From the IMG/VR virus record IMGVR_UViG_3300037484_000333, positions 8,635 to 72,634 of that record: a stretch of 64,000 nt of DNA; one strand, 5' to 3'. The position numbers and the translations under genes were made by a program. This document shows positions 35,905-49,157 of this stretch, piece by piece. The notes under the pieces were generated by a model that saw nothing but the letters and a program-made list of their open reading frames with translations, had not been told where the DNA came from and searched no databases. How positions within the stretch are numbered: the stretch's first letter is position 1; each line of letters opens with the position of its first letter. The stretch is from a virus. Taxonomy: Duplodnaviria; Caudoviricetes.

Positions 35905-36468
35905 CTAGCAACGCGAGTTGCCGCAACCCCAGCATTTTAGGCAACCTTCTTCGTGGACCATAATAGACCCACACTCTGGACAACACACACCGGAGCTATT
36001 ACGTATCGGCACGATCAGTGTCTCTATAGTGGTTTCACCTGGTGGAGGTGGGGGAGAATCGAACTCCCCGTCCTGAAGAGGGTTAGCCCCGTACTCCGAG
36101 ACATCTTCTTCAGTCTTCCTTTCACCCCCAAGAAACCTTCGCTCAAGCCACTGAGCAATGTAGTCTAGTATACTAGTCGCCTTCGGAATATCAGGGTTAC
36201 TAGTCAATCCAGCAGGGTCATACCGAGTCTGTTTGAACTTCCGCGTTATGTCTTCCAGTGGGACGTGGTACTGTAAGGCTATCGAAACCATGATAGCGAA
36301 GGCGTCCACCAACCCGCTGACTGTTGACCCCTGCTTACTTACAAATACAAAGAGTTCTCCTGGTGTGCCATCCTCGAACAACCCTACTATAAGGTAGCCT
36401 GACTGGTCTGCTATTTTGAACTTATGTGTAACACTGTTTCTGTCAGCCGGTAGCCTCTTCCTCTTCGT
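35905..36468 (-). CDS. Stand-alone class II RNR C-terminal (TSCPD/NrdJb-like) domain with Zn ribbon, predicted ACG start
   Basis: KRKRLPADRNSVTHKFKI...GYLIVGLFEDGTPGELF...SKQGS...SILDYI...CPECG...EEGCLKCWGCGNSRC; in-frame TGA three codons before ACG. Confidence 0.75.
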   Translation of the reverse strand, partial: TKRKRLPADRNSVTHKFKIADQSGYLIVGLFEDGTPGELFVFVSKQGSTVSGLVDAFAIMVSIALQYHVPLEDITRKFKQTRYDPAGLTSNPDIPKATSILDYIAQWLERRFLGGERKTEEDVSEYGANPLQDGEFDSPPPPPGETTIETLIVPIRNSSGVCCPECGSIMVHEEGCLKCWGCGNSRC

Positions 36469-46681: not shown

Positions 46682-48343
46682 CTACTCCTTACTGAAGTCT
46701 GAGATCAACTGTGGTGTGGCTGTATCAAACCCTACCACATCCAACATACCAGCGTCATTGGGGTCTGCCAGTGTGAAGCCGTTGGATGTCATAGCCACAA
46801 CCACCAGCTTAGCCGGTATCCCAGTCTTCTTGCGGTACAGTTGGAGTGCCTGGAATGGGTGGAGGTCGCCAGCCCAGGTCTCGTCATCAGTGTAGATCAC
46901 GAAGGTGTCAACCTCAATACCTTCCTTAGCTGCCCACACCATGGGCAACGCACAGTCAGTTCCACCAAAGTTCTGGTCACTGGTCTTCTTCATGGCTGAT
47001 ACCAAGGTATCTTTGGCTGTGATGCCGAGGTTCTTGAAGGTTGTAGAGAACCCCATAGTGTAGTAGTTGGGTTCCGTCCTAGCGGTTACTAATGCCATAG
47101 CGGTCGCACCACGTGCTGGTGTCAGACTTGGTATGCCTGCTATTTCACCCCAAGCCATAGAGCCTGACACGTCCAGGGCCAGCAATGTACGCTTACCCGT
47201 AGGCTCCACATTCCCAAAGGCTAGGTAGAACGCATGGTCTAGGGCGTCTACTATCTGAGGTATAGGCTTCCACTCCAGCTTCCCGCGCTCACCATGACCT
47301 TGGCTGTAAGTACCTAGCGCGGCTAACACAGCTACCGGGTGGATGCGTGCGGCCTTAATAGCCTCTTGGTTGGTGAGTCGGTCAACCACTATCTTCGCGT
47401 CTTCAGACATTGGCTTGAGACAACCATTGGCTGTCATGCGGCCAAGGTTACGAAGAGTGGCCGTCATTGGCAGGTTGGGTAGAAGGGCTGACCATACTGC
47501 TGGGTGCTTGAGTTCCTCAGTTGGGATCATCTCCCAGGTTACTACCTTGGAGTGGGCGTTGATGAGCATCTTGGTCGCCGCTTCACCCTTGACCTGTTGC
47601 AAGGCCTCAAAGGCTATGATAACCTCAGGCCACTCACTGCCCCACACTTCCTTGTATGTGCTGACCACCCCCTTACGGTCAACCGTCCGCAGGCCATACG
47701 CTATGCTATCATCCAGGTGTCTGCACGTGACCCAACGATACAATGCGTTGTAGTTGGCCATAGGGGTAGAAGGGTGAGCAAGACGCAGCAAGTCTCTGTG
47801 AGACCACCCACCACGCTGCTGATACTTGCATAGCTGGTAGGCTAGGTCATTGGGGTTATGCATACCATACCAGTGTTGGATAGCCTTACGCAGTACGCTA
47901 CCCCAACCCCTGAGGTTCTTGCAACACTCAGCGAACTGGAAGAGGTGAGTACCTATACGGCAAACGTGAGGGAGAGCTTCAGAGGCGGCACGCTTGGTTG
48001 GAAGGTCACCGAAGCTGATGCACATGGCGAGTGCGAAGATAGCCGGGTCGTTCTTAGGTGCTCGACCTGACTGGCTGATCTCAACTATACGGTTGACAGT
48101 ACGGGGTCCATCAGCCTTGATACAACGCAGTACGGCCTCGGCATTCTCAATTGTGAGCTTTTGGGCTGATGCGTAGTAGGTTCCACCTTCGGAACCCAGA
48201 ATGAGGAAGCGGTCTAGCCTGATCCAGTCATCAACGGGGAAGACGTAGCCTCCAGCATCGTTGACGACCTGGTCAGTGCGACCTGGTACGGGGGTTGATT
48301 GAGGGGTTTGCTTGATGGAGTAGTGCTCGGAGTATAGAGACAA
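46682..48343 (-). CDS. rsr: Ro60/Rsr TROVE-domain RNA-binding protein
   Basis: QVVNDAGGYVF..DDWIRLDRFLILGSEGGTYY, RAPKNDPAIFALA, KYQQRGGWSHRDLLRLAHP, vWA DVSGSM, GGTDCALPM, YTDDETW. Confidence 0.95.
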   Translation of the reverse strand: MSLYSEHYSIKQTPQSTPVPGRTDQVVNDAGGYVFPVDDWIRLDRFLILGSEGGTYYASAQKLTIENAEAVLRCIKADGPRTVNRIVEISQSGRAPKNDPAIFALAMCISFGDLPTKRAASEALPHVCRIGTHLFQFAECCKNLRGWGSVLRKAIQHWYGMHNPNDLAYQLCKYQQRGGWSHRDLLRLAHPSTPMANYNALYRWVTCRHLDDSIAYGLRTVDRKGVVSTYKEVWGSEWPEVIIAFEALQQVKGEAATKMLINAHSKVVTWEMIPTEELKHPAVWSALLPNLPMTATLRNLGRMTANGCLKPMSEDAKIVVDRLTNQEAIKAARIHPVAVLAALGTYSQGHGERGKLEWKPIPQIVDALDHAFYLAFGNVEPTGKRTLLALDVSGSMAWGEIAGIPSLTPARGATAMALVTARTEPNYYTMGFSTTFKNLGITAKDTLVSAMKKTSDQNFGGTDCALPMVWAAKEGIEVDTFVIYTDDETWAGDLHPFQALQLYRKKTGIPAKLVVVAMTSNGFTLADPNDAGMLDVVGFDTATPQLISDFSKE

Positions 48344-48399: not shown

Positions 48400-48471
48400 A
48401 TACTAAGTCATCGGCCGCACCACCCATCCATCATTTCGTCCTGTCAGTAGTCCGCCGACCACTAATAGGAA

Positions 48472-48547
48472 AAGGCGCGAGGGGTAAGTAGTTGCTATAC
48501 GGAATATACACCAGATAACCGTGTAGCTTCGACCCCTCGCGCGCCTT
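48472..48547 (-). ncRNA. Y-RNA-like ncRNA 1
   Basis: GCGAGGGGU-C-GAAG...ACUAC-UU-ACCCCUCGC: terminal stem with bulged C and G.U/A-U pairs, inner stem GCUACACGG/CCGUAUAGC. Confidence 0.7.
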
Positions 48548-48548
48548 A

Positions 48549-48619
48549 ATACGGGCAAGTAATGTTAGAGGGCGTTTATCCTAAAGAAGTATAGATAACC
48601 CTCTAACTTCGGCCCGTAT
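48549..48619 (-). ncRNA. Y-RNA-like ncRNA 2
   Basis: AUACGGGC-C-GAAG UUAGAGGG...CCCUCUAAC AUUAC-UU-GCCCGUAU. Confidence 0.75.
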
Positions 48620-48631
48620 GTTGTTTGCTAA

Positions 48632-48758
48632 GGGTGAGCAAGTAATTGAAGCAGGGTTGCACCTGTTTGATGGCAGGTGTTGTGGGTTTCGACCCCACTG
48701 CTAACGCGCTTGCACACGTAAGCTTTTTGCCAAATAACCCTACGACTTCGGCCCACCC
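48632..48758 (-). ncRNA. Y-RNA-like ncRNA 3 with tRNA-like internal domain
   Basis: GGGUGGGC-C-GAAG...UAC-UU-GCUCACCC; contains a T-arm-like GUGGG-GUCGAAA-CCCAC and a CACCUG/CAGGUG hairpin. Confidence 0.7.
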
Positions 48759-48772
48759 CATTATTTACTGGA

Positions 48773-48913
48773 GGCTGCACAAGCGGCAGAGACCCAATTC
48801 TGCCAAGGCTGTGGCTCATGGTACGGCGCGCGCATTACGGAAGTTACTGTAGCCATGTTTGTTAGGGAGGGGGCAACCTCTCTCAAACTCTACCGTCCAC
48901 CACCTGTGCAGCC
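48773..48913 (-). ncRNA. Unclassified structured RNA inside the Y array
   Basis: Closing stem GGCUGCACAGGUGG/CCGCUUGUGCAGCC with internal hairpins; lacks the bulged-C motif. Confidence 0.45.
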
Positions 48914-48922
48914 ACAATATGG

Positions 48923-48983
48923 GGCGTAGGCAAGTAGTGACGGACGGGTTAATGCAGTTAACCATCCGTCTTCGGCCTACGCC
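48923..48983 (-). ncRNA. Y-RNA-like ncRNA 4
   Basis: GGCGUAGGC-C-GAAG ACGGA...UCCGUC ACUAC-UU-GCCUACGCC. Confidence 0.75.
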
Positions 48984-49023
48984 ATGTAAAGTTAGGTATT
49001 GACTAGTATTAACTACCCATATC

Positions 49024-49146
49024 TTGGTAGAAGGTAAGCCCATATACACCAGGGCAGGAGTTGCACCTGCCAAGCACAGCGAAACACTGCGGGTATACTT
49101 TTCCCCCACTGGTCTTTTGGGCGTGCACCCCTTTCCCTTCTACCAA
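49024..49146 (-). ncRNA. tRNA-like domain on a long stem
   Basis: 11-bp stem UUGGUAGAAGG/CCUUCUACCAA enclosing D-like, anticodon-like and T-like (GCAGG-UGCAACU-CCUGC) arms. Confidence 0.55.
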
Positions 49147-49157
49147 AGTATGGAGAG

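What the first reader, a model, noticed from the sequence alone, without database searches (positions are those of the whole stretch)
48632..49146. tRNA-mimic domains in the array appear in non-permuted D, anticodon, T order
Y-like RNA 3 carries D-like (UUUGGCAAA), anticodon-like (ACGUG-UGCAAG-CGCGU) and T-like (GUGGG-GUCGAAA-CCCAC) arms plus an extra hairpin. The element at 49024-49146 has the same order, with T-like GCAGG-UGCAACU-CCUGC on an 11-bp stem and no CCA end. As I recall, characterised YrlA RNAs are permuted, with the Ro stem replacing the anticodon arm. Here the long stem seems to replace the acceptor arm, leaving an anticodon-like loop exposed. These could be decoys for anticodon nucleases or other tRNA-sensing defences (inference).
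Basis: inference. Interest (0 to 1): 0.7.

Follow-up and report, generated by a model that had tools for sequence, protein, structure and literature searches.

The report
Phage Y RNA with a T arm
Just upstream of a phage Ro60 gene lies an array of Y RNAs, one carrying a conserved tRNA-type T arm but no D arm, so it is a variant of known bacterial Y RNAs rather than a new anticodon decoy; the second "tRNA-like" element is an unverified orphan.

Summary
The stretch is the minus-strand, non-coding leader of a phage Ro60 gene (46682-48343). It holds four Y RNAs with the Ro60-docking stem, plus two other folded elements.

**Y RNA 3 (48631-48761) is real and conserved.**
- Its long Ro stem carries three hairpins, and the middle one is a YrlA-type T arm (GUGGG-GUCGAAA-CCCAC).
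- I found the same layout beside Ro60 genes in at least 10 other phage or metagenome contigs, with compensatory changes in every hairpin.
- The proposed D hairpin (UUUGGCAAA) does not fold and is not conserved.
- The "anticodon" hairpin ends in a GCAA tetraloop; relatives have UUCG, GCAA or UUGG there.
- Against canonical YrlAs in related phages, the hairpins align as variable arm, T arm and acceptor-like stem, with the D arm missing. The non-permuted reading is therefore not supported for Y3.
- A D-less, oppositely drawn Y RNA (Deinococcus Yrn1) is already published.

**The element at 49020-49150 is unverified.**
- It does fold as a cloverleaf in native order on a 12-bp stem.
- It has no Ro motif and no homologue in about 190 Ro60 loci, and its tRNA-detector scores are at chance level.

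**Other points.**
- The anticodon-nuclease decoy idea has no support.
- True native-order tRNA-shaped Y RNAs exist in related phages, as this scan found before on other DNA. None occurs in this window.

The parts
46682..48343 (-). Ro60 (Rsr) gene, 553 aa from a TTG start
   Evidence: Pfam TROVE 2.7e-52 and vWA_Ro60 2.6e-64. PDB relatives are human and Xenopus Ro60 and D. radiodurans Rsr, E 1e-127 to 1e-133. The source's own gene call was only 359 aa.
48473..48545 (-). Y RNA 1: simple stem-loop Y RNA with GUCGAAG ... ACUACUUACC, followed by UUUU
   Evidence: Fold z = -3.9. Y3 model R1 hit of 25.7 bits.
48548..48622 (-). Y RNA 2: simple Y RNA with GCCGAAG ... GGGUUAUC ... ACUUGCCC
   Evidence: Rfam RF01656 (nematode stem-bulge / Y-type RNA) 38.1 bits, at gathering score 38. 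Fold z = -6.0.
48631..48761 (-). Y RNA 3: Ro-docking stem plus a three-hairpin module
   Evidence: Fold; model R1 homologues; covariation.
48724..48735 (-).
   Evidence: Unpaired in both the minimum-energy and centroid folds. Relatives share the motif YCUGG..AAAA but no hairpin.
48700..48723 (-).
   Evidence: 9 of 9 pairs show compensatory changes. Relatives' loops are UUCG, GCAA or UUGG.
48682..48698 (-). Y3 T arm GUGGG-GUCGAAA-CCCAC
   Evidence: Only match in the genome to GYGGG-NUCRANN-CCCRC. The stem is 100% paired across 13 sequences.
48660..48679 (-). Y3 hp3 CACCUG-CCAUCAAA-CAGGUG (position of the YrlA acceptor-like stem)
   Evidence: 6 of 6 pairs show compensatory changes. Consensus is CAYCNG...CNGRUG.
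48766..48912 (-). Unclassified 147-nt element between Y3 and Y4
   Evidence: Fold z = -1.0, not better than shuffles. No nhmmer hit in 429 loci. No Rfam hit.
48923..48985 (-). Y RNA 4: simple Y RNA with GCCGAAG ... GGUUAAC ... CUACUUGCC
   Evidence: R1 hit of 32.6 bits. Fold z = -5.9.
49020..49150 (-). E6: orphan folded element with a 12-bp outer stem (49136-49147 with 49023-49034), a cloverleaf-like core (49045-49115) and a T-like hairpin (49053-49071)
   Evidence: Fold z = -2.4. Model R2 finds no homologue. ARAGORN reports it only at the chance-level threshold. Rfam Tymo_tRNA-like 12.3 bits, E = 5.9.

Best explanation
The stretch is a co-oriented array of small RNAs that forms the 5' leader of a phage Ro60 gene. 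Four of them (Y1-Y4) are Y RNAs. In each, the paired 5' and 3' ends form the bulged helix (GNCGAAG / ACU-CUUG) that Ro60 proteins dock on.

Y3 is the modular member of the array. On top of the docking stem it carries a four-way junction with three hairpins:
- a tetraloop-capped hairpin;
- a tRNA-type T arm;
- a third conserved hairpin.

By alignment with canonical YrlAs, these occupy the places of the variable arm, T arm and acceptor-like stem. The D arm is absent. Y3 therefore belongs to a recurrent D-arm-less subgroup of T-arm-bearing Y RNAs, in the same functional class as Deinococcus Yrn1 and M. smegmatis YrlB.

Inferred mechanism:
- The array is transcribed with or ahead of Ro60 and cut into single RNAs.
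- Phage Ro60 binds the stems.
- The Y3 upper module presents a T-arm/elbow surface that recruits or blocks a host factor. Candidates are PNPase, as in the RYPER complexes of Deinococcus and Thermus phage phiLo, or a protein that binds the tRNA elbow. The effect would be to redirect RNA decay or repair during infection.

E6 is an unverified tRNA-like fold that lacks the Ro motif. It may be a decayed tRNA or Y gene, or a processing signal.
For: - Ro60 identity.
- Y-type stems: Rfam RF01656 at 38.1 and 18.8 bits, and R1 hits on all four Y RNAs.
- Same Y3 architecture beside Ro60 genes in L069, L064, L033, L201, L428, L404, L377, L382, L410 and L383.
- Covariation on 16 sequences: 90.7% of cells paired against 65% in shuffles and 36-42% in slid controls. 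hp1 has 9 of 9 and hp3 6 of 6 pairs with compensatory changes.
- Canonical YrlAs in L205, L031 and L059 align T arm on T arm, with their V hairpin at hp1 and their acceptor-like stem plus D arm at hp3.
- L064 keeps a vestigial D-arm start after hp3.
- A Deinococcus Yrn1-like RNA (L346 1238-1370) aligns over the same stem and T arm.
- Published behaviour of Y RNAs and of phage Ro60: PMC4201824, 10.1101/312249, PMC12135203.
Against: - No expression, processing or binding data exist for this phage.
- No promoter or terminator was found on the minus strand within the array.
- The alignments used for covariation were fitted to the Y3 model, which favours the structure.
- The T loop of Y3 starts with G rather than U. 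A canonical U54-A58 pair cannot form there, although most relatives have U.
- D-less forms have a 2-nt linker between the T stem and hp3, where canonical YrlAs have none. The equivalence of hp3 with the acceptor-like stem rests on position only.
- Calling hp1 a V arm or an anticodon arm cannot be settled without a 3D structure.
Confidence: 0.7

Rival explanations
1. Y3 is a non-permuted tRNA mimic, as the first reader proposed and as Yrn1 was drawn. In this reading the Ro stem stands for the acceptor stem. The GG-containing linker acts as a D loop that docks on the T loop, hp1 is the anticodon arm, and hp3 is an add-on.
For: - A GG lies 3-5 nt after GUUAUC in 9 of 12 T-arm-bearing relatives. 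It could pair with U-C of the T loop as G18/G19 do in tRNA.
- Variants without hp3 (L027, L219, L379, L378) have exactly stem, linker, hp1 and T arm.
- Yrl-type RNAs of Deinococcus species have two hairpins and then the T arm.
- Chen et al. drew Yrn1 in this way (PMC4201824, section 6).
Against: - No D stem forms.
- The UCUGG motif is also present in Y1, which has no T arm.
- hp3 is conserved and sits between the T arm and the 3' strand. In a native-order mimic the T stem should abut the acceptor strand.
- hp1 has tetraloops, not 7-nt loops.
- Canonical YrlAs align V hairpin on hp1.
Confidence: 0.22
2. The tRNA-like modules are decoys for anticodon nucleases (PrrC, RloC, VapC types) or other tRNA-sensing defences.
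For: Only by analogy. Phages do counter tRNA-targeting defences, and the RNAs carry tRNA-like parts.
Against: - The candidate 'anticodon' loops are GCAA, UUCG, UUGG or other variable loops across the family. There is no conserved 7-nt loop with U33/R37 and no conserved triplet.
- The 'anticodon' stem of E6 needs two mismatches to show a 7-nt loop.
- The RNAs are tied to Ro60 by position in about 190 loci, not to defence or anti-defence genes.
Confidence: 0.04
3. E6 (49020-49150) is a tRNA-derived RNA: a decayed phage tRNA, or a Yrn1-style Y RNA that has lost its Ro bulge. In this reading it is kept as a native-order cloverleaf on a long stem, perhaps as an RNase P/Z processing handle at the head of the array.
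For: - The predicted four-way junction has connectors of 2, 0, 4 and 0 nt, close to those of tRNA.
- Its T-arm 15-mer CAGGUGCAACUCCUG sits in the T arm of ARAGORN-called phage tRNAs in 13 of 120 occurrences. It also equals the tymovirus tRNA-like T loop.
- The core aligns with a phage tRNA-Ile (L330) beyond the T arm.
Against: - There is no homologue in about 190 Ro60 loci.
- nhmmer gives E = 0.47 on a pre-selected database.
- The ARAGORN call appears only where shuffled sequence scores equally often.
- Fold z is only -2.4.
- There is no GNCGAAG motif, and R1 gives no hit at E up to 10.
Confidence: 0.3

Closest known systems
YrlA (Rfam RF02553; S. Typhimurium, M. smegmatis, actinophages; Chen et al. 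2014, PMC4201824; structure in Wang et al. 2018, 10.1101/312249)
   Same: - Encoded next to Ro60.
- The 5' and 3' ends form the Ro-docking stem with GNCGAAG and GUUAY.
- A T arm with the conserved GYGGG/CCCRC stem follows a variable hairpin and precedes a closed hairpin.
   Different: - No D arm, so the D-loop/T-loop elbow that defines YrlA cannot form in the same way.
- A 2-nt linker lies between the T stem and the next hairpin.
- RF02553 gives no hit at E up to 10 in this genome. Canonical YrlAs of related phages score 40-47 bits.
Deinococcus radiodurans Yrn1 (Chen et al. 2000, 2013, 2014)
   Same: - Encoded upstream of rsr on the same strand, among several Y RNAs.
- Both strands of the metazoan-like Ro helix are kept.
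- It has a T arm but no full D arm.
- Its effector module has three stem-loops.
- It was drawn in native tRNA order.
   Different: - In the Deinococcus relatives I could fetch (L345, L346), the T arm is the last of three hairpins. In Y3 it is the middle one.
- The D. radiodurans sequence itself could not be fetched.
M. smegmatis YrlB and Thermus phage phiLo Yrl1/Yrl2
   Same: - These are Ro60-bound RNAs encoded upstream of Ro60.
- YrlB has a possible T arm without the rest of the tRNA module (PMC4201824).
- The phiLo RNAs bind phage Ro60 and host PNPase (PMC12135203).
   Different: No sequence comparison was made here, and the phiLo RNAs are described as simple stem-bulge-stem RNAs.
Native-order 'tRNA-shaped' Y RNAs of phage and bacterial Ro60 loci
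   Same: They lie beside Ro60 and contain the same Ro helix and T arm.
   Different: - They have an open 7-bp acceptor stem and a full D arm.
- The Ro helix is closed by a loop in place of the anticodon loop.
- Some have an encoded CCA.
- The window has none: no R3 hit at E up to 0.01.
Tymovirus tRNA-like structure (Rfam RF00233), for E6 only
   Same: Identical T-loop core GGUGCAACUCC, and the same order of three hairpins.
   Different: The score is 12.3 bits against a gathering score of 40, with E = 5.9. E6 has no CCA end and no pseudoknotted acceptor, so it is not a member.

Membership tests
Y RNA (Ro60-associated ncRNA) | Encoded next to a Ro60/Rsr gene, usually on the same strand | tested here: met
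   The array at 48473-49150 lies directly upstream of Ro60 (46682-48343), and both are on the minus strand.
Y RNA (Ro60-associated ncRNA) | The 5' and 3' ends pair into a long stem that carries GNCGAAN0-1G | tested here: met
   Met for Y1-Y4, including Y3 (RF01656 hits). Not met for E6, which has GGUAGAAGG fully paired and gives no R1 hit.
Y RNA (Ro60-associated ncRNA) | Bound and stabilised by Ro60 | not testable with these tools
   Needs immunoprecipitation or a gel-shift assay.
YrlA (RF02553) | T arm with the conserved stem and a UUCRANY-type loop | tested here: met
   GUGGG-GUCGAAA-CCCAC at 48682-48698, conserved in relatives. The first loop base is G in Y3 and U in most relatives.
YrlA (RF02553) | D arm (GUAGCUCA..GG..AGAGC) after the acceptor-like stem, forming the elbow with the T loop | tested here: not met
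   hp3 is followed directly by the 3' strand of the Ro stem. The same holds in L069, L428, L404, L382 and others.
YrlA (RF02553) | Match to the family covariance model | tested here: not met
   No hit at E up to 10 in the whole 72.6-kb genome. Positive controls in related phages score 40-47 bits, E 1e-9 to 5e-11. The Y3-type copies in L069 and L064 are also missed.
Yrn1-type Y RNA | T arm present, no full D arm, three stem-loops in the effector module, metazoan-like two-strand Ro helix | tested here: met
   against the description in PMC4201824 and 10.1101/312249.
Yrn1-type Y RNA | Hairpin order D-like, anticodon-like, T arm, with the T arm next to the 3' strand | tested here: not met
   For Y3, the T arm is the middle hairpin and the D-like hairpin does not fold. 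The Deinococcus relatives L345 and L346 have the T arm last. For E6 the predicted order fits, but it is unverified.
tRNA | Cloverleaf recognised by ARAGORN or Rfam RF00005 | tested here: not met
   No tRNAs in the window. No RF00005 hit at E up to 10 in the array. E6 is reported only at -ps80, which is chance level.
Native-order tRNA-shaped Y RNA | Open acceptor stem, D arm, loop-closed Ro helix in place of the anticodon loop, T arm | tested here: not met
   Model R3 finds about 38 such RNAs in about 27 of 100 related loci but none in the window.

The most novel reading that the evidence does not exclude
Y3 and its at least 10 relatives form an undescribed subfamily of phage and bacterial Y RNAs. 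They would build a tRNA-elbow-like surface from a T arm, a conserved CAYCNG hairpin and a YCUGG..AAAA linker, without any D arm. In this phage, that RNA would work together with three plain Y RNAs and a native-order tRNA-like RNA (E6) as a multi-RNA Ro60 system. Each RNA would couple Ro60 to a different host partner.
Probability: 0.25. Interest if true: 0.55.

Novelty: new variant of a known kind. Interest (0 to 1): 0.4.

Why it matters
- Y RNAs are the adaptors that decide what Ro60 does, and which partner recognises the tRNA-like module is still unknown.
- A conserved subgroup keeps the T arm and a neighbouring hairpin but drops the D arm. This narrows what the unknown partner needs to see.
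- That subgroup also gives a natural minimal module for binding studies.
- Several adaptor designs are used side by side in phages: plain Y RNAs, D-less forms, canonical permuted YrlAs and native-order tRNA-shaped forms. This fits viral rewiring of host RNA decay or repair.
- For the finding as posed, the main value is corrective. The "new order" is largely a relabelling of a known design, and the decoy hypothesis lacks support.

Tried and rejected
- **DNA similarity:** blastn of the array against 50,697 phage records gave no match.
- **Loose DNA pattern** (CGAAG, gap, T arm) in IMG/VR: only chance hits next to ordinary tRNAs, and the Y3 model R1 hit none of those loci.
- **E6 15-mer in IMG/VR:** about 120 hits, the number expected by chance. 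It was useful only to show that the sequence occurs in real tRNA T arms.
- **E6 model R2:** no significant hit in 100 viral loci or in 87 metagenome and Deinococcus loci. The best was E = 0.049 for a 34-nt hairpin.
- **nhmmer** of the unclassified element at 48766-48912 (E5) and of E6 against 429 loci: nothing significant.
- **ARAGORN at relaxed thresholds:** uninformative, because real and shuffled sequence score alike.
- **Coding reading of the array:** the 97-aa ORF at 48816-49109 and the 68-aa ORF at 48646-48852 have no PHROG match and overlap clear Y RNAs.
- **D. radiodurans Yrn1 itself:** not obtained. Plasmid and phage collections hold no Deinococcus rsr. A scan with a 77-residue piece of Rsr, taken from the PDB alignment, returned seven other Deinococcaceae loci (six named Deinococcus).
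- **Relatives of a virus record** cannot be drawn.
- **Two reviews** (PMC10870794, PMC6047535) are not held.
- **Linker GG as a D-loop surrogate:** left open. The same UCUGG occurs in Y1, which has no T arm.

Full report
**Context.** The window is bases 8635-72634 of a 72.6-kb IMG/VR virus record with direct terminal repeats. The ORF at 46682-48343 on the minus strand is a full-length Ro60: TROVE 2.7e-52, Ro60 vWA 2.6e-64. Its solved relatives are human and Xenopus Ro60 and D. radiodurans Rsr. The nearest proteins in a 5.8-billion-protein collection are only 59% identical, and the named ones come mostly from Chloroflexota-type metagenome bins. Named phages reach about 45%. The 800 bases upstream of Ro60 have no convincing gene. 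All the features in the finding read sensibly on the minus strand, the strand of Ro60.

**The array.** Four elements carry the Y RNA signature, a long terminal stem with GNCGAAG on the 5' side and ACU(A)CUUGNCC on the 3' side. They lie at 48473-48545, 48548-48622, 48631-48761 (Y3) and 48923-48985.
- The second reaches the gathering score of Rfam RF01656, a nematode stem-bulge (Y-type) RNA. Y3 matches it weakly.
- All four fold far better than shuffles, with z from -3.8 to -6.0.
- Two further elements lack the motif: 48766-48912 (z = -1.0) and 49020-49150 (E6, z = -2.4).

**Y3 anatomy.** The minimum-energy and centroid folds agree. They show the Ro stem, then a 12-nt single strand (AUUUGGCAAAAA). 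Next comes hp1 (GCU-ACGUGU-GCAA-GCGCGU-AGC), followed by a T-type arm (GUGGG-GUCGAAA-CCCAC) and the dinucleotide AA. hp3 (CACCUG-CCAUCAAA-CAGGUG) follows, and then the 3' strand.
- The "6-nt anticodon-like loop" closes to a GCAA tetraloop.
- The strict YrlA T-arm pattern GYGGG-NUCRANN-CCCRC occurs once in the whole genome, here. A loose T-arm pattern is at chance frequency: 13 found, 15.7 expected.

**Relatives.**
- I collected 80 viral and 80 metagenomic Ro60 loci with a Ro60 alignment. I also collected 24 viral loci with a specific DNA pattern.
- A covariance model of Y3 (R1) finds the same architecture in L069 (43.5 bits), L428 (44.4), L377, L404, L064, L382, L383, L410, L201 and L033.
- Shorter forms without hp3 occur in L027, L219, L379 and L378.
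- On 16 aligned sequences, 90.7% of cells pair, against 65% in column shuffles and 36-42% when partners are slid. hp1 has compensatory changes at 9 of 9 pairs, hp3 at 6 of 6 and the T stem at 3 of 5, with its terminal G-C pairs invariant (a smaller set).
- The alignment was fitted to the model, which favours the structure. Even so, the hairpins are visible in independent single-sequence folds.
- Shared family features are a YCUGG..AAAA linker, a tetraloop on hp1, a 2-nt spacer after the T stem, and hp3 with the consensus CAYCNG...CNGRUG.

**Which order?** Related phages also carry canonical YrlAs. In these the Ro stem is followed by a V hairpin, the T arm, a closed acceptor-like hairpin with no spacer, a full D arm (GUAGCUCA..GG..AGAGC) and the 3' strand. 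Examples are L059, L031, L205, L203, L222 and L220.
- R1 aligns these full length, with T arm on T arm and the V hairpin at hp1. The acceptor-like stem plus D arm becomes an insertion at hp3.
- L064 2785-2919 has the Y3 layout but keeps "UGUAGCU", the start of a D arm, after hp3.
- Rfam's YrlA model recognises the canonical copies at 40-47 bits. That is below its gathering score of 69, with E of 1e-9 to 5e-11.
- The same model gives nothing at E up to 10 in this genome. It also misses the Y3-type copies in L069 and L064.
- Y3 is therefore best read as the YrlA layout without the D arm, and it is not a YrlA in the strict sense.

The alternative labelling is topologically possible. It treats the Ro stem as the acceptor, the linker as the D loop and hp1 as the anticodon arm. 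Chen et al. drew D. radiodurans Yrn1 exactly this way: no full D arm, an "anticodon arm" of 5 bp with a 6-nt loop, a T arm, and the orientation opposite to YrlA (PMC4201824, sections 6 and 10; "three stem loops" in 10.1101/312249).
- I fetched seven Deinococcaceae rsr loci, six of them named Deinococcus species, using a 77-residue piece of Rsr.
- They hold arrays of tRNAs, canonical YrlAs and Yrn1-like RNAs in which two hairpins precede the T arm and none follows it.
- One of these, L346 1238-1370, aligns with Y3 over the stem and the T arm.
- So a published precedent exists for a D-less, natively drawn Y RNA. Y3 differs from it in having the T arm in the middle.

**E6.**
- Inside a 12-bp stem and two further helices lies a four-way junction. 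It comprises a 3-4-bp hairpin with an A-rich loop, then a 6-bp hairpin with a UUU loop, which is a 7-nt loop only if two mismatches are allowed. Last comes GGCAGG-UGCAACU-CCUGCC.
- The connectors resemble those of tRNA, and the order is native.
- ARAGORN reports it only at 80% threshold, where shuffled genomes give as many calls as the real one.
- Rfam gives only an insignificant match to the tymovirus tRNA-like element, which shares the T loop.
- A model of E6 finds no homologue in about 190 Ro60 loci.
- It has no Ro motif, and R1 does not see it at E up to 10.
- The T-arm 15-mer lies in the T arm of called phage tRNAs in 13 of 120 occurrences. It is therefore a legitimate T-arm sequence.
- E6 stays an orphan.

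**Decoy hypothesis.** Across the family the hp1 loop is GCAA, UUCG, UUGG or another short variable loop. There is no conserved anticodon-loop shape or sequence for PrrC-, RloC- or VapC-type enzymes to recognise. What is conserved is the T arm and hp3, the elbow and mini-helix side of a tRNA.

**Mechanism.**
- Shown: gene order, motifs, folds and conservation.
- Inferred from published Ro60 biology: Ro60 binds the terminal stems, and the upper module of Y3 engages a second factor. In Deinococcus and in Thermus phage phiLo, Y RNAs bridge Ro60 to PNPase (10.1101/312249; PMC12135203). The conserved T-arm side also suggests a tRNA-elbow-binding protein.
- No promoter or terminator consensus lies inside the array on the minus strand. 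This fits processing from a longer transcript, as reported for M. smegmatis (PMC4201824).

**Seen in passing.**
- Many related loci carry truly native-order tRNA-shaped Y RNAs. These have a 7-bp acceptor stem formed by the two ends, a full D arm and a T arm. The Ro helix is permuted and closed by a loop where the anticodon loop would be, and some have an encoded CCA.
- I found these before reading the scan's earlier notes, which describe the same design on other DNA. None occurs in this window.

**Verdict.** Y3 is a new variant (D-arm-less, T arm in the middle) within a known kind. E6 is unresolved.

Noticed in passing
L015:3156-3278, L034:3072-3197, L013:3273-3392, L003:1882-2017, L010:3210-3365, and about 30 more hits in about 27 related loci: These are native-order tRNA-shaped Y RNAs. 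They have a 7-bp acceptor stem formed by the two ends, canonical D and T arms, and a loop-closed, permuted Ro helix in place of the anticodon loop (for example CUUGCCC-GCAA-GGGCCGA). Rfam tRNA scores them at 43-50 bits. Several have discriminator plus CCA encoded. The scan has already reported this design on other DNA, and none occurs in this window.
   Followed up: partly
window 36040-36129 (-): A 90-nt match to Rfam tmRNA (48.3 bits, gathering score 47) spans model positions 1-374 with most of the model deleted. It contains a T-arm-like GGGAG-UUCGAUU-CUCCC at 36068. ARAGORN reports no tmRNA or tRNA there at default settings.
   Followed up: no
window 46682-48343 (-): The source's own gene call for Ro60 is only 359 aa (65% of the protein). 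The full 553-aa frame starts at a TTG, and its N-terminal residues are conserved in 21 relatives.
   Followed up: partly
window 48766-48912 (-): A 147-nt spacer element between Y3 and Y4 has a 13-bp terminal stem, but its fold is no better than shuffles (z = -1.0). It has no Rfam, nhmmer or Ro-motif match.
   Followed up: partly
window 48469-48545 (-): Y1, the last RNA before Ro60, ends in its GC-rich terminal stem followed by UUUU. This could act as a weak terminator or attenuator ahead of the Ro60 start. The consensus scan did not call it.
   Followed up: no
L344-L350 (Deinococcaceae rsr loci; six are named Deinococcus species), bases 1-2500: Upstream of rsr these genomes carry long mixed arrays of ordinary tRNAs, canonical YrlAs, Yrn1-like RNAs and plain Y RNAs. 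There are up to about 10 T arms and 5-8 GNCGAAG motifs in 2.5 kb.
   Followed up: partly
L382:508-620; L410:1946-2058: Y3-type relatives use T-loop or T-stem variants that resemble the T-like hairpin of E6: UGCAAAU in L382, and GCAGG/CCUGC in L410.
   Followed up: no
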